Translations under genes and position numbers: made by a program
Shown: positions 9,301 through 17,708 of the stretch, in pieces
Layout: every line of letters begins with the position of its first letter
How positions within the stretch are numbered: position 1 is the stretch's first letter
Notes under the pieces: model-generated
What the model saw: the letters and a program-made list of their open reading frames with translations, nothing else
Told to the model about the DNA's origin: nothing
Database searches by the model: none
Source: Escherichia coli
Lineage (GTDB): Bacteria; Pseudomonadota; Gammaproteobacteria; Enterobacterales; Enterobacteriaceae
Strand: one strand, 5' to 3'
DNA: 18,167 nucleotides
NCBI RefSeq assembly: GCF_003334315.1
Contig: NZ_QOWR01000072.1

Positions 9301-10043
9301 TTGGGTGTAAATAGCTGGGTGGCGGCAGGGATGTCTTCACTCTTGACCACCTTACCCATTACCTGATCTTTCTTTTCAGAGATGTAGAATTGGTAAAGCC
9401 AACCAATCACTTCTACCTGTTGCCAGTCCTCTTCAGGGATGCCGTCTACCAATCCACGCAGAATTGAGTCGGTACGCGTTAGGTTGTCTGGTAGAAGAAG
9501 CTCAGTTTCATCGTCCAATGCGTCAAATAAGAAAGGCATCGCCTCATGAAGCTTATGGCACTGGCCTAACAGCAGTTCACGATACAGCTCTTCGTCTTTG
9601 TTGCCCGCAAGCTTGAGTTCAACAATGCGAGCTCTATCTAATCCGAGTTCATCCGCAGCGTCTTGGGCATGGTCGATAATTTCAAAGCCTTTAGGGTTGT
9701 CTGGGTGCGACAAAACACGAAAACCGTGGCCTAGATAGTCATGGATTTCCATATAGCGAATAGCACACAGACGGTTGAACCAGGTATAAGCTACTTGTTC
9801 AATAAGTTGTGCATACCCAAGTTTCTGGCTTCTGGCTACTATGCGTTTTCTGGGCTCGGCCAGTTTACCGTCAAAACTGTTACCGGCGATTTGAAGCACA
9901 GAACCTTGTAGATTCGCTTCTGCAATTTGTAGCTCGCCCTTTTTATTCGCGGTGATACCAAAGGTATTTAATCGTTTAGCTACCGCATCCATAAATTCGC
10001 GGCGCGCTTTTGGTGCGTATTTTTTCATGTTGTTCGTATTCAT
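6390..10043 (-). CDS. pglX: PglX, BREX N6-adenine DNA methyltransferase
   Basis: 1217 aa. AdoMet-binding motif I LDPACGSG at 9096-9119 and catalytic motif IV NPPY at 8505-8516, both verified by reverse-complement translation. Size and position match BREX PglX. Confidence 0.9.
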   Translation of the reverse strand: MNTNNMKKYAPKARREFMDAVAKRLNTFGITANKKGELQIAEANLQGSVLQIAGNSFDGKLAEPRKRIVARSQKLGYAQLIEQVAYTWFNRLCAIRYMEIHDYLGHGFRVLSHPDNPKGFEIIDHAQDAADELGLDRARIVELKLAGNKDEELYRELLLGQCHKLHEAMPFLFDALDDETELLLPDNLTRTDSILRGLVDGIPEEDWQQVEVIGWLYQFYISEKKDQVMGKVVKSEDIPAATQLFTPNWIVKYLVQNSVGRQWLQTYPDSAIKTQMEYYIEPAEQSDEVNQQLKAITPESIEPETIKVLDPACGSGHILIEAYNVLKAIYEERGFRSRDIPKMILENNLYGLDIDDRAAQLSGFALMMMARDDDKRIFTRNVRLNVLSLQESNHLDLPTLWKALNLSGSWQSGTSQGLFSDDDQDLSSFNADNRYQLLKRTLARFTQAKTFGSLIDVPSDDHEQLKEILSTLVELQESGDSMQKPAAKQLIEFVHQALVLSIRYDAVIANPPYMGSKYQTAEVKMFLKDNFKGYEKDLFSAYIVRNLQLAKEHGQLGFMTPFVWMFISSYEQLRSTLIDDEIISTLIQLEYSGFDGATVPICTFTLTKGHIPEYIGSYIRLSDFKGAANQAPKTLQAIKNPECGWFYKAKSDDFKKIPGSPIAYWASSLQFSMFDSHPLLTSIANVAEGTTTGDVNRFLKMWHEIDVNGLGIGFDSRERAKDSGKKWFPYNKGGEYRKWFGNNDYVVNWAEDGKELRQYQGSFLRGEKFYFKAGLTWSKVSSGILSFRLFDEGFLFDTGGLCAFSDNIEYIAAILNSKVSLDIMSILAPTLNFTVGTVSSLPIVEGIPRLTENANRLKRLSKSDWDSYETSWDFTKHPLLSHTSLLIKDSYSRLLLENSQSLKEYREIEEYNNKVIAEAYGITSDALTIADHEITLFSSFGYRYGPDRAVNGEFLYRSDVVAELISYSIGAMLGRYSIDSKGVVYAHTANEGFEQLVAEGAYKTFPADEDGIIPLTDQEWFKDDATNRFREFVQVVWGDDHLQENLDFVAESLCLNAIKPKKSESALETIRRYLSTQFYKDHLKTYKKRPIYWLFSSGKQKAFECLVYLHRYNEGTLSRMRTEYVTPLLGKYDAYAEQLEKQIETADSTSEANRFKKELDALIKKQVELREFDDKLKHYADMRISLDLDDGVKVNYGKFGDLLADVKAITGSAPEVN

Positions 10044-10058
10044 ATGATCTTGCGCCTC

Positions 10059-11822
10059 TTATTCTGTCTCTACGCTGCTTGCGGGTTGTAATGCAGTTCT
10101 AATGCGGGCAAGCAGTGTTTCCTGACGCTCGCGGTAAAAGTCCATAAACTGGTTTAGTTGTTCAGGTAATGATGTTATGGCTTGCGATTGCAGATGTGCT
10201 TGTCTTGCATTCACATCAGGCCACTGCTGCGCATACCATTCATGGGGCATTTTTTGCCGCTTCTGGTTGTTGATTGTCCCTTCCAACAGTTGAAGGTTTG
10301 GCAGCTTATTAGATGCCTCGATGAGTTCATCTAGCTGTTCAGCTGGGACACCAACTTTTGCAAGCTTGTTACGCGTAAACAAACCTTTGGGGTAAATGTG
10401 GTCCACATGAAAGTGTCGTGAAAAATCGAATCCTGGGAACAACAAAGTCAACAAGGCAAAGGTACGCGGATTACCATAATCCAACTGCGCTAGTTCACTA
10501 ATTTCCTCTGGGTCAAAGCGCAACGATTTACCACGCTGTTGCATGGTCGCTTCAATTTTCGCTAGCGGGAAACCCGTATCACCCGATTGTTTAATGTCTG
10601 AGCGAAGCATAGTAAGCAGGGTATCCAAACCACTTCCCCAGATGCCTGACGCTTTCAACAACGACCTAATGAGCCAGTTTCTGATGCATTCTCTATCGAC
10701 CGCATATTCAACCCTAGAAAGGTAGCTTGCCGTTAACTTTCGGTGGTGCAGGTAATAGGCTAACGGGAGGATGGCACTTGTTGCTCTGAGGTTTTGTGCA
10801 TTAAAACCAAAACTTGCCAGCAACTGCATTGAGAGCAATAACGCATCACGAATTGGCGTCCAGTTCTTTTCGAGAATCGCCATGTTTTCCTTGTTAAAGT
10901 TCTCAACCTTAAAGCCCACGCTACCGATGTCAGAGAGCATTAAGCCTGCTTTTAAAACGAGATCTTTTGATACGTTGAATCCATCACCAACACGGTTCAT
11001 CTCATCCACTAATGCATAAATTTCTTCACGGGCATCTAACGAGCTCCACTGCGCTACTGCTATTGAAAGTAGTAAGTCTGAGTAGGACAAAGTAGTGCCG
11101 CCGCTATTCATGCGGATAAAGATATTCAGAACACGTTCAAGGCTCTGATCACTTTCTTCGTAAAACGAAATCTTGTCTTTGTCATGGATGGTCCGATACA
11201 AGTGACGAAGAGTTGAGCGAGCCTCTTTGCGTTGCTCCGAGCTCAACCTAGCATCATCAGCAACTTCATCGATAAGTGCATCTTCTTCCTCTTCCATGAT
11301 CCGGCCTACACGGAACCAGTATTGTTCAGATGCATCCAAAGAGGCTTTATCGTCGGTTAGGAACTCAAAGTCATACATCGACCCAGTTTCCAAGTCGGGC
11401 TGGCTTAACAGATTCAAGTGAAGCCTGCGCACTGGGAAGGCGTCATCATTGCTCCACCATTTACCTGTCAGCTTCCACGCAAATGAGCCGCGTAGGCCGA
11501 TGTTCAAAGCGGTAATCCGCTGCTGTCCATCTAGGACGGCAATGAACTCACGCTCTGGTAACTGAGTGACATTTTCACAATGGTAGTTATCTCGCTCATG
11601 GTAATGCTGCATGAACTGATAAAACTGATAGCTATGCCGGTTCTCTGGTTTTATCTTCCAGAATAGAAAGGTCCCAAACGGGTAACCTTGCAACAGGCTA
11701 TCAAATAGACGACAGATCTGTTCTGGTCGCCATACAAACTCTCGCTGGATGGCCGGTAACAGGTATTCCTGCTCAGCAACCTTGTCGAGTAATGATCTTA
11801 TTGTTCCACCCGCTTGATACAT
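10059..11822 (-). CDS. GmrSD-family (DUF262 + DUF1524) putative modification-dependent type IV restriction endonuclease, BrxU/SspE-like, embedded in the BREX operon
   Basis: 587 aa. N-terminal DUF262/ParB-like motifs LLPAIQREFVW and DGQQR (11517-11531); C-terminal His-Me-finger/HNH-like DUF1524 motif HVDHI (10395-10409), followed by NLQLLEGTINNQK. Sits 16 bp after brxC and 15 bp before pglX, each with a purine-rich SD. Confidence 0.85.
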   Translation of the reverse strand: MYQAGGTIRSLLDKVAEQEYLLPAIQREFVWRPEQICRLFDSLLQGYPFGTFLFWKIKPENRHSYQFYQFMQHYHERDNYHCENVTQLPEREFIAVLDGQQRITALNIGLRGSFAWKLTGKWWSNDDAFPVRRLHLNLLSQPDLETGSMYDFEFLTDDKASLDASEQYWFRVGRIMEEEEDALIDEVADDARLSSEQRKEARSTLRHLYRTIHDKDKISFYEESDQSLERVLNIFIRMNSGGTTLSYSDLLLSIAVAQWSSLDAREEIYALVDEMNRVGDGFNVSKDLVLKAGLMLSDIGSVGFKVENFNKENMAILEKNWTPIRDALLLSMQLLASFGFNAQNLRATSAILPLAYYLHHRKLTASYLSRVEYAVDRECIRNWLIRSLLKASGIWGSGLDTLLTMLRSDIKQSGDTGFPLAKIEATMQQRGKSLRFDPEEISELAQLDYGNPRTFALLTLLFPGFDFSRHFHVDHIYPKGLFTRNKLAKVGVPAEQLDELIEASNKLPNLQLLEGTINNQKRQKMPHEWYAQQWPDVNARQAHLQSQAITSLPEQLNQFMDFYRERQETLLARIRTALQPASSVETE

Positions 11823-11838
11823 AGCTATCCGTTGCCTC

Positions 11839-14800
11839 TTACTTAATTCTTACTCGGTCGCCAGCTTTGACCGCAGCAATCAGCTGCTCTCTTAAAGCGG
11901 CAAGATAGGCATCAACTTCGGCTTCACTTTCAATGAATCCGGTTGTTACTGACTTAGCCATGGCATCGGTTGAGTTAATCGTTACGGTACGTTTTGCAAC
12001 CGGCTGTGGCTGCACTGGTTCAGAGGCTGGCTCAGGTGCTAGAGCTGCTTTACCGGCTTTCGCTGCTTCCTCTTCGCGTGTCTGCTGTTCGAGTTCACGA
12101 CGTCTTCGCTCAGCTTCAGCTTTTTTGCGTTGATCTTCGATAAAGCCATTCAGCAACTCATAGGCTTCGTCCTCGTAACCTTCCGCTTCAGTTTGCTCAC
12201 TGATAATTTGTGGTATTGAAGAGGTCGCTTCAATACGCTGTCTGCACATTTGTAACGGGCGCAGTGCTTGGTTCTGTAATTCAGACGGTGCATAAGCTTC
12301 AGCTAGCGCTTCTTTTACACGTCCGATGCGCAGATCAACACGCTCTAAGGCATGAGTGCGTTTTTCTTCAACCAATGTTGAGTTAACTTTTGCCACCTGC
12401 TCGATAAGCGGATTAATGTGGCGCAGCTGCTCATACGGCGAGGGCATATTGTAAATGCGTTCTAATTCAGTGAGCGCTTTTAATGCTTCACTGTCTTTTT
12501 CTAACGCAGGTCTATTGGCCTTAAATTTCTCGTTCAATGCGCCAGCAAGGGCTTGCCAAGTTTGAAATTGGCTATTGTAGAAGTCATCAAGATCCTCAAA
12601 ATCCTCAGCAAACTCTTCAAGGGCATCAGCGTCTTCTAAGAATCGGGTGATAAGGGCGAAGCTTGAAGTTTGCTCAAGAATACCCGCGACCAATGCAAGA
12701 CCCTCGTCAATTTGAGATTTACCTGGGAAATGGCCTGTCTGTGACTTGGTTCTGAATGATTTAAGCTTTTCATTCCAAGCCAGTAATTCATCGCGCACTA
12801 ATTCGTAGAGCTCCTTTTCACCAGAGCCGGTAAAGGTTTTTGAAAAGATCTCTTTAACAAGACCAGCAGCCTTTTTGATTTGGCGCTCGTCATGTTGCCT
12901 GATTTTATGTACACGGATCTCGCCGCGTTTACGCACGCTGGTAAACGGCTCGTAAGCTTTTTTCAACGCCAGATCTGTGCCTTGGGTACTAAAAGATAAC
13001 TTTCCAGCCAAGCCCAGCCTTGCAGTGAGCAATAAGATTTCATTGTCTGGCCAGCCATACGGGCGCTTGCCGAAGTGGGCAACGATGTCACGTAAGTAAA
13101 CAGGCTCATTACGCTCGACTTTTAGCGTTACGTACTGCTCAACCTCACGCGTAGCTTCTGGGTTACATTCATCCGCTTGAAGATCCAGTCCAATCTGAGC
13201 AATATCATCAGCAACAAGAACGGCCTGTAGCTCACGCAAAACTTCACCAGGCGTTGCCTTGAGCATGTTCAATTTAGCGAAGGTATTTTCGATAACGTAT
13301 TTGTATGCTTCTTCGACGATGGCACTTGGCGTTGCTGATTTATTCGGCAGTTTTGTGCCGATCGCGTAAACGTCAGCCTCGGCAAACAAAGCTTCAAAAT
13401 CCGTTCTTAAGCGTTTTTCACGCTCCATATTTTCCATCTGCTTTTCGCGGAGAAGGTGTTCTTGCTCTGGTCGCTGTCCTGAATTTTGTTTTAAGAATCG
13501 GTCAGTTTTTATAAAGGTTGTCAGCTCATCCCAAAGACGCTTATGTTCGCCCAGCTTGACGAGCACGCACCCATCAGCCTCAAGCGTATGATTGAGGCAC
13601 GCTTGATCGTGGGAGTAATTTTCAAAGTGCGAATCCAAAGGTGAAATGACTTTAATGACTAGGTCTTCCAGCGTGGTGCCATCTTTTGGATGACCATTGC
13701 AAAAACGGCTCACCGCAAAGTCTTGCTTATTAATCGGGTATCGATAGGCACGATTACCTTTCAAAATACCGTCAAATACGATGGCTGAAAGCTTGTTCGA
13801 GACCTCTGACATTTCAACGTCAGTGTGACGGATCTCGTTTTCGATCTCTTTTTCTTCGTTGGTCAGGAAGATAAACTCATCACCATTACGCGCAATCAGC
13901 AATTGGCGTTCAAGACGATTCAAGCTCTCTTCAATTTGTTTACGCAGCGCAATTTTATCTGCATCGATTCGATCAATTGACAGCGTCACAAGGTTGTCTA
14001 GTGTGCTTTTGACAACGTCCACATAACGGATCAAGAAAAGCGTTTTTAGGATCTTGCCATCAAAATCCGTTAAGGAATCCAACTCACAGGCTTGGTCAAT
14101 CGTTCGCTTAACCGCTGGCTCCAAAAAGCTTTCAATCGGTGCGTAGAAACTGTAAAACGGGATTAACACATCAAGGCCAGAGTCCTTCATCTGTTTTGCA
14201 GCTGATTGGAAAGCATCAAGTAATGAACGCTCCCCCATGGCTAAGTGCTTACCCGTCGCGCCTTTTGTTCGAATTGACTCAAACACTTTTTGAACCAGCG
14301 TGTAATGGTAAGGCACAAACGGATAGTTGTCCACGAAAGACGGAGCGTCGGTGTAGCCCTTTAGAGACGCGGTTGTCGTTTTATCAAATGTCAGCTGGTT
14401 ACGAAGAATGTCGCCCTTTTCAGCAAAGACATCGATGAGGTATGTACGAGCTTCTTCCGTTTTGGACAACAATCGCTTTTGAATAACTTCCGAGGTATTC
14501 GAGCTCGACAGCTGTAAGCGGGTACTAAAACGCCCTTGAATTTTAGAGAAGTCCTCGCCATCGCGCTTATCCATACCACCAATGGCAGCATCAATGTCTG
14601 CCTGAGAGGTAACAACGACCCAAGCTCTGCCACCACAATATGTGCCAAGATCTTCAGTAATGGTCTGAAGCTTCAACATCATTTGTGTGTTCTTACCGAT
14701 AAACTGACCGACTTCATCGACTAAGAAAAGAAGGTTACGATCCCCAGTGCGATCTAAGTATTCATTAACCCACTTACAGAAGTTTCGGATATCTAGCGGG

Positions 14801-15516
14801 AAATTGTTTTCAACCTGCTCAACCCACGCTTTGGCAGACTCTAATGATTGCTCACTGGCATGAGCGAGTGCTTCTGAAAGTTCGTCTCGATAGAAGTCAT
14901 AGGCGTCACGCTCCTTTTCCCAAGTTGATTGAGTCAACTCAGCAAATTTGTCCTTGAAAGATGCGTATTGATTACGTTTATCAAGCTCGCGTTCTAAGTG
15001 CGCAATATGAGGAAAGTCAGCGCAGTATCCTACACGCTCATTAAAGACTTTGAGGAAAACCTTAAGAATGGCATTTTCTCGGTCGTCCGTATTGGCTCGC
15101 GAATCGATGTTAAAAAGAATAACATCAGTGTCTTTGGTAACCGCTTTTTGGATGTCCGCCAACAGCATGGCGTCGTTGATTTTGTCTTTGAAAAACTCAA
15201 ACGCTTGTCGGCCTTGGCCATCTTTTTCAACAGATTTATTCTCAAGCAAATAAGATAAAATTTTCAGGAAGTGCGATTTACCCGAGCCAAAGAAGCCAGA
15301 AATCCACACACCAATTTTACCTGACATATCACCGTGGCTTTGCGTCACAGATGGGACGTAAGCCTCAAAAAATGCACGAAAGTGTCTATCTAACTCTCGG
15401 GTAACAACATACTCATCAAGCTCGACATACACACTGTCATTGTCTTTTTGTTCCGCTTTAACAACGCCATTAATGTCACGCGTCAACTTCTTGGAAAAAA
15501 TCTGTTCAATTTTCAT
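11839..15516 (-). CDS. brxC: BrxC (PglY-like) large P-loop ATPase of BREX
   Basis: 1225 aa. Walker A GFFGSGKS at 15274-15297 (verified); Walker B-like LLFLVDEVGQ. Size and position are typical of BrxC. Confidence 0.9.
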   Translation of the reverse strand: MKIEQIFSKKLTRDINGVVKAEQKDNDSVYVELDEYVVTRELDRHFRAFFEAYVPSVTQSHGDMSGKIGVWISGFFGSGKSHFLKILSYLLENKSVEKDGQGRQAFEFFKDKINDAMLLADIQKAVTKDTDVILFNIDSRANTDDRENAILKVFLKVFNERVGYCADFPHIAHLERELDKRNQYASFKDKFAELTQSTWEKERDAYDFYRDELSEALAHASEQSLESAKAWVEQVENNFPLDIRNFCKWVNEYLDRTGDRNLLFLVDEVGQFIGKNTQMMLKLQTITEDLGTYCGGRAWVVVTSQADIDAAIGGMDKRDGEDFSKIQGRFSTRLQLSSSNTSEVIQKRLLSKTEEARTYLIDVFAEKGDILRNQLTFDKTTTASLKGYTDAPSFVDNYPFVPYHYTLVQKVFESIRTKGATGKHLAMGERSLLDAFQSAAKQMKDSGLDVLIPFYSFYAPIESFLEPAVKRTIDQACELDSLTDFDGKILKTLFLIRYVDVVKSTLDNLVTLSIDRIDADKIALRKQIEESLNRLERQLLIARNGDEFIFLTNEEKEIENEIRHTDVEMSEVSNKLSAIVFDGILKGNRAYRYPINKQDFAVSRFCNGHPKDGTTLEDLVIKVISPLDSHFENYSHDQACLNHTLEADGCVLVKLGEHKRLWDELTTFIKTDRFLKQNSGQRPEQEHLLREKQMENMEREKRLRTDFEALFAEADVYAIGTKLPNKSATPSAIVEEAYKYVIENTFAKLNMLKATPGEVLRELQAVLVADDIAQIGLDLQADECNPEATREVEQYVTLKVERNEPVYLRDIVAHFGKRPYGWPDNEILLLTARLGLAGKLSFSTQGTDLALKKAYEPFTSVRKRGEIRVHKIRQHDERQIKKAAGLVKEIFSKTFTGSGEKELYELVRDELLAWNEKLKSFRTKSQTGHFPGKSQIDEGLALVAGILEQTSSFALITRFLEDADALEEFAEDFEDLDDFYNSQFQTWQALAGALNEKFKANRPALEKDSEALKALTELERIYNMPSPYEQLRHINPLIEQVAKVNSTLVEEKRTHALERVDLRIGRVKEALAEAYAPSELQNQALRPLQMCRQRIEATSSIPQIISEQTEAEGYEDEAYELLNGFIEDQRKKAEAERRRRELEQQTREEEAAKAGKAALAPEPASEPVQPQPVAKRTVTINSTDAMAKSVTTGFIESEAEVDAYLAALREQLIAAVKAGDRVRIK

Positions 15517-15534
15517 TCGGGAGGCTCCCTGCTC

Positions 15535-16128
15535 TTAAATTTTTTTACCGTCTTCAGGCACAAGTTTGAAGGCGCGATAGTAGTTTTTAGATTCGATCAT
15601 GCCAAAAGGATGCAAATCCCTTCCGCTATATTCACCCGGATAGAAAAGCACTAATGGCGTGCTACCCATCACGTCTTGCAGAGCACTAAGTAACTCATGT
15701 CCTCGGACAAGAGGCCACGCACTGCCTAAGCCTGACAGCAACACAAACTCAAGTTCTGATGGCTTATATTTGTCCGCGATATACCTTGCCACTTTCTCTT
15801 GGCTCAGAGGCCCGGCTAGTGTTTTTCGAAGACCATCAACACCGACTTGCAATTCACGCTGGCAAGCTCGGTCGAAAAGGCCTCGCTCCTCAAGCATATC
15901 TATCAAGACTTCAAAAATATTGAGATGGACAAAGCGGTAACCACGCTTGTTGAGTTTTTCGTCAACGTGCTTAAGGTGCTCTCGTACAAGCAGTTCATAC
16001 TTGGCTGGATAGTCAAATACCCAAAATCCAATTTCATTGCCCAAGCCATCGTTTTTCAAAAACTTAGGGCTTTCAATTCGTTCCTGTATAAGATCAAGCC
16101 TGGTCTGGAGAGCCTTCATATTGTGCAC
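15535..16128 (-). CDS. brxB: BrxB (DUF1788-type) BREX protein
   Basis: 197 aa, second small protein of the operon. The start overlaps the brxA 3' end by 13 bp. Assignment rests on size and conserved gene order, not on a remembered motif. Confidence 0.8.
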   Translation of the reverse strand: MHNMKALQTRLDLIQERIESPKFLKNDGLGNEIGFWVFDYPAKYELLVREHLKHVDEKLNKRGYRFVHLNIFEVLIDMLEERGLFDRACQRELQVGVDGLRKTLAGPLSQEKVARYIADKYKPSELEFVLLSGLGSAWPLVRGHELLSALQDVMGSTPLVLFYPGEYSGRDLHPFGMIESKNYYRAFKLVPEDGKKI

Positions 16129-16715
16129 TCCATGACCTCAATCAAATCTTCCCGGCCCAGACGAACTAACCAGTCTTTAACTTCTGGCATTAGGTAAACA
16201 GGTTGTATTTTCTTTGTCCTGCTATCACTCAGGTAGCCACTATCAACCAATGCCTTAATTGCGTTGTTACCCATTTTTTTGACAGTTGAGTCAGAAAAAC
16301 CGCCAAGTTCGGCATATGCCCGCACTCTCGAGTCATAAAACTCAGACCATGCATCAGCGGTTAAAGCGGGTTTATAGGTGCGACGAGCCTCGGCTAAGGT
16401 ATGTCGCATAAAATCAGCGACAACCGGAGAATGAATGAGTAATGACATCATCAGCATTTGGACATAGGCACGTTCACTCGCGGCTAAAAGATCAGTCATA
16501 AACTCATCACCCAGGCCTTCAATACGCCAACGGATTGTTCTGGCATAACGAATAGCCGTCTGACCGGATTTTTTCTGAAGAACATTTTGCTCAACGATCA
16601 GCGACTTCCACTCATCTTCTGGAAGTTTTTTCAGTAGCGATTCTGCGATTATTCTAGATTCAGTTATCAATAAACTGCTTCCGATAAGATCGCCTAAATA
16701 TTCTTTTATATTCAT
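16116..16715 (-). CDS. brxA: BrxA (DUF1819-type) BREX protein
   Basis: 199 aa, first core gene, 9 bp downstream of the regulator gene. Assignment rests on size and gene order. Confidence 0.8.
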   Translation of the reverse strand: MNIKEYLGDLIGSSLLITESRIIAESLLKKLPEDEWKSLIVEQNVLQKKSGQTAIRYARTIRWRIEGLGDEFMTDLLAASERAYVQMLMMSLLIHSPVVADFMRHTLAEARRTYKPALTADAWSEFYDSRVRAYAELGGFSDSTVKKMGNNAIKALVDSGYLSDSRTKKIQPVYLMPEVKDWLVRLGREDLIEVMECTI

Positions 16716-16724
16716 AAATTCATC

Positions 16725-17651
16725 TCACGATTCGCTATATCCAGGAGCGAGTGCAGCATTGTCAACGCCGTATAGTGCTTCTGGATTTTTAAGTGCTAAA
16801 TGGAACTCTCGCCCATTGCTCTTGCTATTCTTTGAACAATCGATATTCCATAAACGCAGTAAATATCCAGCGAACGCAGCTCTTATCTCTACACGCAACC
16901 TATTGTTTTCCATTGCGTAGTCTATCAATACAGCTTCTGGATGTGCTAGTTTTGGATGAGGTATCAGCTCTAGTTCAACGATTCGGTTCCATTGCTTATC
17001 CCACTGAAGAGTCTCAACTTCGTCGTTAACCTCATCTTCTAACAACTCAACTTCACTTATTCTGGTTAACACAAAATCCCTAAATTCTCTATGCTTTCTA
17101 TCGAATGCTCGGACATGCCATCTCAAGCCATTGTCAATCAAGGTATGAGGAACTATTTGCCTGCTCCCATGACCACTCGACAATGAGGTGTACTCAATAT
17201 TAATCACCGCGCGTTTATGTATGGCTTCACTAATCGCCGCTACCACTTCCAATTTCGGCTTATTGAGATGAAATGGTGCTTCACAAGCCATAGGTGGCCT
17301 AACCTTGCCAAGAAAGCCATCACCGAACCCTTGGCTTATCGTCGCAAGCGTTCGAACAATGTCATAATCAAACAACGGCTGGAATGTGCTCGTCTTCAAG
17401 TGCACTCTGCGCTTTTCGTCATACATAACGTTGTTAGGAGCCAACGCTTTGTACCGCGCAAAATCTTGTGTTGCCACAGACGGCGCTACGCTAAAGCGCT
17501 CGGTTAAATAACTCCGCCCAGCTTCACCTTTAAATAACAAAGTGAAATCAATATGAGCGAGTCGTTCTCTCTGTGCTTGGCTAAGCTCTTCAAGTCCAGT
17601 GTTGTCTTGCACTGTCAACCTCTCAATCCATTTGGGACAAGCCCTAATCAT
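16725..17651 (-). CDS. brxR: WYL-domain transcriptional regulator (BrxR/CapW-like) with N-terminal winged HTH
   Basis: 308 aa. N-terminal HTH-like segment (RSYLTERFSVAPSVATQDFARYK) and a central WYL-like signature (RQIVPHTLIDNGLRWHVRAFDRKHREFRDFVLTRI; WHV in place of WYL). Immediately upstream of brxA on the same strand, as BrxR is in described BREX loci. Confidence 0.72.
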   Translation of the reverse strand: MIRACPKWIERLTVQDNTGLEELSQAQRERLAHIDFTLLFKGEAGRSYLTERFSVAPSVATQDFARYKALAPNNVMYDEKRRVHLKTSTFQPLFDYDIVRTLATISQGFGDGFLGKVRPPMACEAPFHLNKPKLEVVAAISEAIHKRAVINIEYTSLSSGHGSRQIVPHTLIDNGLRWHVRAFDRKHREFRDFVLTRISEVELLEDEVNDEVETLQWDKQWNRIVELELIPHPKLAHPEAVLIDYAMENNRLRVEIRAAFAGYLLRLWNIDCSKNSKSNGREFHLALKNPEALYGVDNAALAPGYSES

Positions 17652-17691
17652 CTAAAACTAGGAAGCCATCGATTGAATTCCATCAAGCAAT

Positions 17692-17708
17692 CTACTGTTT
17701 TTCAGTAG
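17692..17708. promoter_or_regulatory. Perfect inverted repeat CTACTG-N5-CAGTAG upstream of brxR; candidate operator
   Basis: CTACTGTTTTTCAGTAG on the plus strand, centred about 49 bp upstream of the brxR start codon. No T-tract follows on either strand, so it is not a typical intrinsic terminator. Confidence 0.35.

What the first reader, a model, noticed from the sequence alone, without database searches (positions are those of the whole stretch)
10059..11822. GmrSD-like type IV restriction gene embedded between brxC and pglX in a BREX operon
Seen in sequence: a 587-aa ORF with DUF262 motifs (LLPAIQREFVW, DGQQR) and a C-terminal His-Me/HNH-like DUF1524 motif (HVDHI) sits inside the BREX transcription unit, with 15-16 bp SD-containing gaps on both sides. 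Established knowledge: GmrSD-family enzymes cut DNA carrying modified cytosines, and a GmrSD homologue (BrxU) has been described in a plasmid-borne BREX island, as far as I recall at a different position than here. Inference: this is a composite BREX/type IV module in which the extra nuclease covers phages with hypermodified DNA that escape methylation-based BREX. Placement between the ATPase and the methyltransferase implies co-regulation by BrxR and may represent an undescribed architecture.
Basis: partly seen in the sequence, partly recalled or inferred. Interest (0 to 1): 0.72.

Follow-up and report, generated by a model that had tools for sequence, protein, structure and literature searches.

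The report
BrxU restriction gene inside BREX operon
The 587-aa gene is BrxU, a published and crystallised enzyme that cuts phage DNA carrying modified cytosines, and it sits in the same place inside the BREX anti-phage operon as in the 2021 description, so the finding is real but already known.

Summary
A 587-aa ORF lies on the minus strand at 10059-11822, between brxC and pglX of a complete type I BREX operon (brxR-brxA-brxB-brxC-[ORF]-pglX-pglZ-brxL). The gaps are 16 and 15 bp, and all quoted motifs are present.

The "undescribed architecture" reading does not hold. The protein matches BrxU of Escherichia fergusonii plasmid pEFER (PDB 7P9K/7P9M) at 584 of 587 residues. The whole island is 99.4% identical in DNA to pEFER. 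There the same gene occupies the same brxC|pglX slot, and Picton et al. 2021 say so explicitly.

- Deleting brxU leaves BREX methylation (GCTAAT) and BREX defence intact.
- Deleting pglX leaves BrxU defence intact.
- D474A and H475A abolish cleavage.
- BrxU cuts 5mC, 5hmC and glucosyl-5hmC DNA.
- BrxR represses the promoters upstream of brxR and brxA.

Every residue shown to be essential is conserved here. What is specific to this window is minor. It is a chromosomal, IS-flanked copy with three substitutions at variable positions, one base change in the BrxR operator, and no pEFER-type brxS/brxT upstream. Verdict: already known, low interest.

The parts
10059..11822 (-). brxU: GmrSD-family type IV modification-dependent restriction enzyme. 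N-terminal DUF262 NTPase domain (RLFDS 38-42, DGQQR 98-102) and C-terminal DUF1524 HNH nuclease (DHIYP 474-478).
   Evidence: 584/587 identical to PDB 7P9K/7P9M. Pfam GmrSD_N 8.3e-34. PADLOC HEC-05 2.3e-233. All mutationally tested residues are conserved (against PMC8565348).
11823..11838 (-). 16-bp brxC|brxU junction. On the coding strand the brxC stop TAA is followed by GAGGCAACGGATAGCT and then the brxU ATG.
   Evidence: No promoter-like or terminator-like site on the coding strand.
10044..10058 (-). 15-bp brxU|pglX junction. On the coding strand the brxU stop TAA is followed by GAGGCGCAAGATCAT and then the pglX ATG. With its stop codon it shares the octamer TAAGAGGC with the other junction.
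16725..17651 (-). brxR: WYL-domain transcriptional repressor of the island
   Evidence: PADLOC WYL 1.9e-18. One aa difference from pEFER BrxR. Function from PMC9122601.
17687..17713 (-). R-BOX1, the BrxR operator: 11-bp inverted repeats with a 5-bp spacer, just downstream of PbrxR. It carries one G-to-A change in half-site IR2 (window 17691) relative to pEFER.
   Evidence: Operator defined in PMC9122601.
16895..16921 (-). R-BOX2, the putative second BrxR site upstream of brxA. Identical to pEFER.
   Evidence: PMC9122601
16116..16715 (-). brxA
   Evidence: PADLOC BrxA 5.2e-109
15535..16128 (-). brxB (RefSeq uses a start 9 nt downstream, giving 194 aa)
   Evidence: PADLOC BrxB 1.5e-70
11839..15516 (-). 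brxC (P-loop ATPase)
   Evidence: PADLOC BrxC E = 0
6390..10043 (-). pglX, the BREX methyltransferase. Identical in protein sequence to pEFER PglX, whose target is GCTAAT.
   Evidence: PADLOC PglX E = 0. 0 aa differences. Motif from PMC8565348.
3733..6390 (-). pglZ
   Evidence: PADLOC PglZ E = 0
1641..3716 (-). brxL (Lon-like)
   Evidence: PADLOC BrxL E = 0

Best explanation

Mechanism (shown for the 99.5%-identical protein, inferred for this allele): BrxU rests as an intertwined homodimer. Binding of a nucleotide to the N-terminal DUF262 domain (RLFDS and DGQQR motifs) dissociates it into monomers. Hydrolysis and re-association then let the C-terminal DUF1524 HNH nuclease (D474/H475) degrade DNA containing 5mC, 5hmC, glucosyl-5hmC or arabinosyl-modified cytosines. 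Unmodified DNA is spared.

BrxU acts independently of BREX and is sufficient for defence on its own. BREX (PglX methylating GCTAAT) blocks unmodified phages, and BrxU removes T-even-like phages with hypermodified cytosines.

Expression (inferred): brxU is co-transcribed with brxC and pglX from the BrxR-repressed PbrxR and PbrxA promoters. The 15-16 bp junctions leave no room for an intergenic promoter or terminator.
For: Identity: 584/587 residues to PDB 7P9K/7P9M. Window 1567-17862 is 99.4% identical in DNA to pEFER NC_011743, with the DUF262 gene in the same slot.

Literature:
- Deleting brxU keeps GCTAAT methylation and BREX defence; deleting pglX keeps BrxU defence; BrxU alone is sufficient.
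- S42, Q101, R102, D474 and H475 are essential. All are present here.
- Substrate range.
- BrxR represses PbrxR and PbrxA through the R-BOX sites. Both boxes are present in the window.

Other support:
- No promoter-like or terminator-like site on the coding strand around brxU.
- brxU GC content (46.3%) matches the island (45.4%).
- Of 9 nucleotide differences from pEFER brxU, only 3 are non-synonymous. They fall at positions that also vary in a 62%-identical orthologue.
- PADLOC's HEC-05 model, which Payne et al. equate with BrxU, scores 2.3e-233.
Against: Nothing contradicts it. Four caveats apply.
- No experiment was done on this allele (H63, Q141, Y269 where pEFER has D, K, H).
- The Pfam GmrSD_C hit is marginal on its own (E = 0.013).
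- Co-transcription of brxU with its neighbours has not been shown directly, even in pEFER. No reporter region immediately upstream of brxU is described in the text I read.
- R-BOX1 carries a G-to-A change in the tighter-binding half-site IR2, so repression here may differ.
Confidence: 0.95

Rival explanations
1. The embedded protein is an integral BREX subunit, needed for BREX methylation or exclusion, and not a separate defence.
For: It is packed inside the operon with 15-16 bp junctions. A 62%-identical orthologue occupies the same slot in a divergent BREX locus.
Against: In pEFER, deleting brxU leaves GCTAAT methylation and BREX-type defence intact, and BrxU alone from pBAD gives its full phenotype. 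A natural 1639-bp deletion of brxU exists in an otherwise intact-looking locus in E. coli AR_0061. Many E. coli BREX-1 loci have brxC directly next to pglX. More distant homologues are stand-alone or sit beside type I or other R-M systems.
Confidence: 0.02
2. This chromosomal copy is a decaying or silent version. The three substitutions, or the rearranged upstream region, would make BrxU inactive or unexpressed.
For: There are three amino-acid changes from the characterised protein. R-BOX1 is mutated, and the pEFER brxS/brxT region is replaced by a truncated zinc-ribbon gene and an IS3. IS elements flank the island.
Against: The ORF is full length and every mutationally essential residue is intact. 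The substitutions sit at positions that vary in the ET896 orthologue. Six of the nine nucleotide differences are synonymous. The -10 element and both R-BOXes lie inside the conserved block. The identical brxU allele is kept in at least three other E. coli chromosomes. A weakened operator would raise expression, not lower it.
Confidence: 0.03
3. It is an SspE-like enzyme that senses phosphorothioate modification, not a sensor of modified cytosines.
For: A weak PADLOC SspE hit, E = 3.4e-05, limited to residues 18-107 of the shared DUF262 domain.
Against: The HEC-05/BrxU model fits the full length at 2.3e-233. No ssp or dnd genes are in the window. The near-identical protein is shown to cut DNA with modified cytosines.
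Confidence: 0.005

Closest known systems
BrxU of Escherichia fergusonii ATCC 35469 plasmid pEFER (PDB 7P9K, 7P9M; Picton et al. 2021, PMC8565348)
   Same: 584/587 residues, the same length, all catalytic and dimer-switch residues, the same slot between brxC and pglX, and the same junction sequences. The flanking BREX genes are the same (PglX 100% identical; the others differ by 1-14 aa), and so are BrxR and R-BOX2.
   Different: H63/Q141/Y269 where pEFER has D/K/H. The copy is chromosomal, not on an IncR plasmid (identical DNA in E. coli PSS-11 and LR-28). R-BOX1 IR2 has one G-to-A change. pEFER's brxS/brxT region upstream of brxR is absent. An IS3-family pseudogene lies downstream of brxL.
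HEC-05 (PADLOC; Payne et al. preprint 10.1101/2024.01.29.577857)
   Same: The best PADLOC model, covering residues 2-580 at 2.3e-233. The authors state that their HEC-05 representative is 99.2% identical to BrxU and confirm defence.
   Different: HEC-05 was found embedded in Hma systems. Here the host system is BREX.
GmrSD sensu stricto (Eco94GmrSD, EcoCT596 GmrS/GmrD)
   Same: DUF262 + linker + DUF1524 architecture, the DGQQR NTPase motif, an HNH nuclease, and cleavage of glc-5hmC/5hmC DNA.
   Different: Only about 13% sequence identity according to PMC8565348. BrxU has the RLFDS motif, which the preprint reports as absent from EcoCTGmrSD. BrxU also has a broader range of nucleotides, metals and substrates, including 5mC.
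Other defence genes embedded in BREX operons
   Same: The general phenomenon of same-strand defence cassettes nested in BREX is documented. E. coli SCU-171 carries an AAA ATPase plus a small ORF inside its BREX operon.
   Different: The cargo protein differs, and in SCU-171 the slot differs too (pglX|pglZ).

Membership tests
[quoted passage not shown] | Full-length sequence identity to the characterised and crystallised protein | tested here: met
   584/587 identical over residues 1-587, E = 0, 1329 bits
[quoted passage not shown] | N-terminal DUF262/GmrSD_N domain with RLFDS (R38, S42) and DGQQR (D98, Q100, Q101, R102) motifs | tested here: met
   Pfam PF03235 at 8.3e-34, residues 9-253. Motifs at 38-42 and 98-102.
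[quoted passage not shown] | C-terminal DUF1524 HNH nuclease with the DHIYP motif (D474, H475) | tested here: met
   DHIYP at 474-478, in a C-terminal region with no differences from the crystallised protein (the three substitutions are at residues 63, 141 and 269). The Pfam PF07510 score alone is marginal (E = 0.013).
[quoted passage not shown] | Gene located between brxC and pglX of a type I BREX operon headed by brxR | tested here: met
   Gene order. The same order is annotated in pEFER and stated in PMC8565348.
[quoted passage not shown] | NTP- and metal-dependent cleavage of DNA with modified cytosines; defence independent of PglX | not testable with these tools
   Shown experimentally for the 99.5%-identical protein. 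Inferred for this allele.
Type I BREX | Six core genes brxA, brxB, brxC, pglX, pglZ, brxL on one strand | tested here: met
   PADLOC hits for all six, E-values from 1.5e-70 to 0, each covering the whole or nearly the whole protein
SspE (phosphorothioate-sensing DUF262 nickase) | Full-length similarity to SspE and linkage to sspABCD | tested here: not met
   The SspE model matches residues 18-107 only, at 3.4e-05. No ssp genes are in the window or its chromosomal flanks.
GmrSD sensu stricto (Eco94GmrSD-like) | Close sequence relationship to GmrSD beyond the shared domains | tested here: inconclusive
   The Pfam domain-level match is met. No GmrSD-named PADLOC model appears among the ten hits. 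The paper reports 13% identity. It is a superfamily relative, not an orthologue.

The most novel reading that the evidence does not exclude
The brxC|pglX slot could be a conserved docking site that couples BrxU production or activity to BREX, not an arbitrary insertion point. Three observations prompt this. A 62%-identical BrxU orthologue occupies the same slot in a BREX locus whose BrxC and PglZ are only 52% and 46% identical. Every pEFER-type locus among 5426 complete E. coli genomes either carries brxU there or shows its deletion scar. Both junctions share the octamer TAAGAGGC. This chromosomal variant might also be regulated differently from pEFER, because it has a mutated R-BOX1 half-site and no brxS/brxT.
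Probability: 0.08. Interest if true: 0.35.

Novelty: already known. Interest (0 to 1): 0.08.

Why it matters
As a discovery it matters little. The gene, its position, structure, substrates, independence from BREX and regulator were published between 2021 and 2026. Three modest points have some value. The pEFER defence island also exists as an IS-bracketed chromosomal copy in E. coli. The module occurs in about 1% of complete E. coli genomes. Natural variants exist (a brxU deletion scar, a divergent orthologue in the same slot, an operator point mutation) that could serve studies of how embedded defence cassettes are gained, lost and regulated.

Tried and rejected
- I looked for signs that brxU is a recent foreign insertion. 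Its GC, GC3 and codon usage do not stand out from the island. No inverted or direct repeats of 18 nt or more flank it. Only the 8-nt TAAGAGGC is shared by the two junctions.
- I looked for an internal promoter or terminator that would uncouple brxU from brxC and pglX. None was found on the coding strand. This is a weak consensus scan only.
- I looked for a pristine 'empty site' among close relatives using a brxC-end plus pglX-start chimeric query. All 55 E. coli records at 95% identity or above are split by brxU except AR_0061, which is a deletion scar and not an empty site.
- I considered SspE-like and canonical GmrSD membership and rejected both as the primary classification.
- NCBIfam has no model for the protein.
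- Rfam found only the IS3 frameshift element, unrelated to the finding.
- I did not run structure prediction, the large protein searches or the metagenome scans. A crystal structure of a 99.5%-identical protein and a 99.4%-identical annotated locus made them unnecessary.

Full report
**Observation.** The window carries eight collinear minus-strand genes: a WYL regulator (16725-17651), brxA (16116-16715), brxB (15535-16128), brxC (11839-15516), the 587-aa ORF (10059-11822), pglX (6390-10043), pglZ (3733-6390) and brxL (1641-3716). PADLOC profiles identify each BREX-1 component over all or nearly all of its length, with E-values from 1.5e-70 to 0. The quoted motifs are present: LLPAIQREFVW at 21-31, DGQQR at 98-102 and HVDHI at 472-476. 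The gaps are 16 bp and 15 bp. On the coding strand the junctions read TAA-GAGGCAACGGATAGCT-ATG and TAA-GAGGCGCAAGATCAT-ATG. The GAGG is 11-12 nt from the start codon, further than a typical Shine-Dalgarno spacing. Pfam gives GmrSD_N (DUF262) at 8.3e-34 and GmrSD_C (DUF1524) at only 0.013.

**What it is.** A phmmer search of the PDB returns one entry pair, 7P9K/7P9M. It aligns over residues 1-587 with only three differences: window H63, Q141 and Y269 against D, K and H. Megablast against plasmids gives E. fergusonii ATCC 35469 plasmid pEFER (NC_011743) as the best hit. Window 1567-17862 aligns to it at 99.4% with two gaps. In the pEFER annotation the DUF262 gene lies between brxC and pglX, exactly as here. 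This is BrxU in its type location.

**How it works (published for the near-identical locus, inferred for this allele).**
- Deleting brxU left GCTAAT N6mA methylation and BREX-type defence intact. Deleting pglX left BrxU-type defence intact. The double mutant was defenceless. BrxU expressed alone reproduced its phenotype.
- BrxU degrades DNA with 5mC, 5hmC or glc-5hmC in a nucleotide- and metal-dependent way and spares unmodified DNA. Later work extends this to further cytosine modifications, including arabinosylated cytosines, and reports that the phage counter-defence protein IPI* can inhibit BrxU.
- The crystal structure is an intertwined dimer, and ATP shifts it to monomers. S42A/D, Q101A, R102A, D474A and H475A abolish defence. 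D474A and H475A retain NTP hydrolysis but lose cleavage.
- All of these residues (R38, S42, D98, Q100, Q101, R102, D474, H475, N485, N519, E528) are present in the window protein.
- The three substitutions are not among the tested residues. They fall at positions that also differ in a 62%-identical orthologue. Only 3 of the 9 nucleotide differences in brxU are non-synonymous.
- PglX is identical in protein sequence to pEFER PglX, so the predicted BREX motif is GCTAAT.

**Regulation.** Picton et al. 2022 (PMC9122601) showed promoter activity upstream of brxR (strong) and brxA (weak), both repressed by BrxR. They found none upstream of brxS or pglZ. BrxR binds R-BOX1 (pEFER 12820-12846), and a second box, R-BOX2, lies at 13612-13638. 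R-BOX2 is exact in the window at 16895-16921. R-BOX1 is at 17687-17713 with a single G-to-A change in half-site IR2 (window 17691). The paper reports IR2 as the tighter-binding half-site. The AR_0061 relative keeps the pEFER base. A consensus scan finds no promoter-like or terminator-like site on the coding strand near brxU. Co-regulation by BrxR is thus well supported by inference. A transcript spanning brxC-brxU-pglX has not been demonstrated in the text I read.

**Distribution and context.**
- The window (78-18167) is 100% identical to chromosomal loci in E. coli PSS-11 and LR-28. There the island is bracketed by IS1 and IS3-family elements within a region of other mobile and defence-like genes.
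- 55 plasmids (Escherichia, Salmonella, Klebsiella) and 44 complete E. coli genomes hold at least 80% of the window.
- brxU itself occurs in 53 of 5426 complete E. coli genomes, at 16 chromosomal and 38 plasmid places.
- With a chimeric brxC-end/pglX-start query, every pEFER-type locus is interrupted by brxU except E. coli AR_0061. In AR_0061 a 1639-bp internal deletion (window 10101-11739) leaves a 125-bp scar containing both ends of brxU.
- A divergent BREX locus in E. coli ET896 (BrxC 52%, PglZ 46% identical) carries a 62%-identical BrxU orthologue in the same slot, with longer spacers.
- Other E. coli BREX-1 loci have brxC directly next to pglX, or carry a different cargo between pglX and pglZ.
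- More distant homologues on plasmids are stand-alone or sit beside type I or other R-M systems. This fits the report by Payne et al. that BrxU/HEC-05-like genes are commonly embedded in Hma and type I R-M systems, and that embedded genes share the host system's orientation in 96.7% of cases.

**Signs of insertion.** brxU matches the rest of the island in GC content (46.3% against 45.4%) and codon usage. It has no flanking repeats of 18 nt or more. The only shared junction feature is the octamer TAAGAGGC.

**Verdict.** The gene, its exact position, its structure, its mechanism, its independence from BREX and its regulator are all published. Novelty: already known. Interest: low. What is specific to this window is minor: the chromosomal, IS-flanked setting, three conservative-looking substitutions, one operator base change, and the absence of pEFER's brxS/brxT arrangement.

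Noticed in passing
L003 (E. coli AR_0061 chromosome NZ_CP020058) 9003-9125; corresponds to loss of window 10101-11739: A natural brxU deletion scar. BrxA, BrxB and BrxC carry the same protein accessions as in pEFER. brxC and pglX are separated by 156 bp that retain the first 83 nt and last 42 nt of brxU, leaving a 37-codon remnant ORF. The 1639-bp deletion is not a multiple of three and shows only 2-3 nt of microhomology.
   Followed up: yes
L004 (E. coli ET896 chromosome NZ_CP100883) 9001-10755: A 62%-identical BrxU orthologue sits in the same brxC|pglX slot of a much more divergent BREX-1 locus (BrxC 52%, PglZ 46% identical). That locus has no brxR, and its pglX is annotated as frameshifted. 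Its spacers are 101 and 86 bp, and the brxC-side spacer contains a GC-rich hairpin.
   Followed up: partly
window 17691 (within R-BOX1, 17687-17713): A single G-to-A change (coding strand) in IR2 of the BrxR operator, CAGTAGGTTGC to CAGTAGATTGC. The position is conserved between R-BOX1 and R-BOX2 of pEFER and is unchanged in AR_0061. IR2 is reported as the higher-affinity half-site, so repression of PbrxR may be weaker in this lineage.
   Followed up: partly
window 17863-18167: Homology to pEFER stops at 17862. pEFER's brxT/brxS region is replaced by a short remnant of a 'putative zinc ribbon protein' gene (17917-18075, 97% identical to the longer gene in AR_0061). According to the PSS-11 annotation, an IS3 element begins at about 18156.
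   Followed up: partly
window 78-1399: Downstream of brxL lie an IS1 remnant (about 78-208) and an IS3-family (ISKpn34-like) pseudogene. The pseudogene has terminal inverted repeats at 220-243 and 1376-1399 and an intact Rfam IS1222-type frameshift element at 500-617 (128 bits). pEFER's 'brxS' is 94% identical to this IS, but it lies on the other side of the island in the opposite orientation. This suggests IS-mediated movement of the island between plasmid and chromosome.
   Followed up: partly
window 1-77: The first 77 bases do not match E. coli PSS-11 or LR-28, although the rest of the window is 100% identical to them. The window therefore comes from a genome with a different junction at the IS1 remnant.
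   Followed up: no
window 7157-8047 (inside pglX): This segment of pglX has no BLAST match in the otherwise 94-99% identical AR_0061 locus. This suggests a swapped specificity region in PglX between close relatives. The window PglX is 100% identical to pEFER PglX (target GCTAAT), and the window contains six GCTAAT sites.
   Followed up: no
window 11823-11841 and 10044-10061; L005 7701-7748; L006 7704-7748: With their stop codons, both brxU junctions share the octamer TAAGAGGC, followed by similar 11-12 nt leaders. Canonical E. coli BREX-1 loci without an insert instead have a 45-48 bp brxC|pglX spacer containing a GC-rich hairpin followed by a short run of T (CAGGGCAG...CTGCCCTTT). That hairpin may be an attenuator or a processing site. 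It is absent from the pEFER-type operon.
   Followed up: partly
L005 (E. coli SCU-171 chromosome NZ_CP054363) 11378-13062: A different BREX-1 locus, on a tRNA-Leu/integrase island, carries an AAA family ATPase and a small hypothetical gene between pglX and pglZ. This shows a second embedding slot with a different cargo.
   Followed up: no
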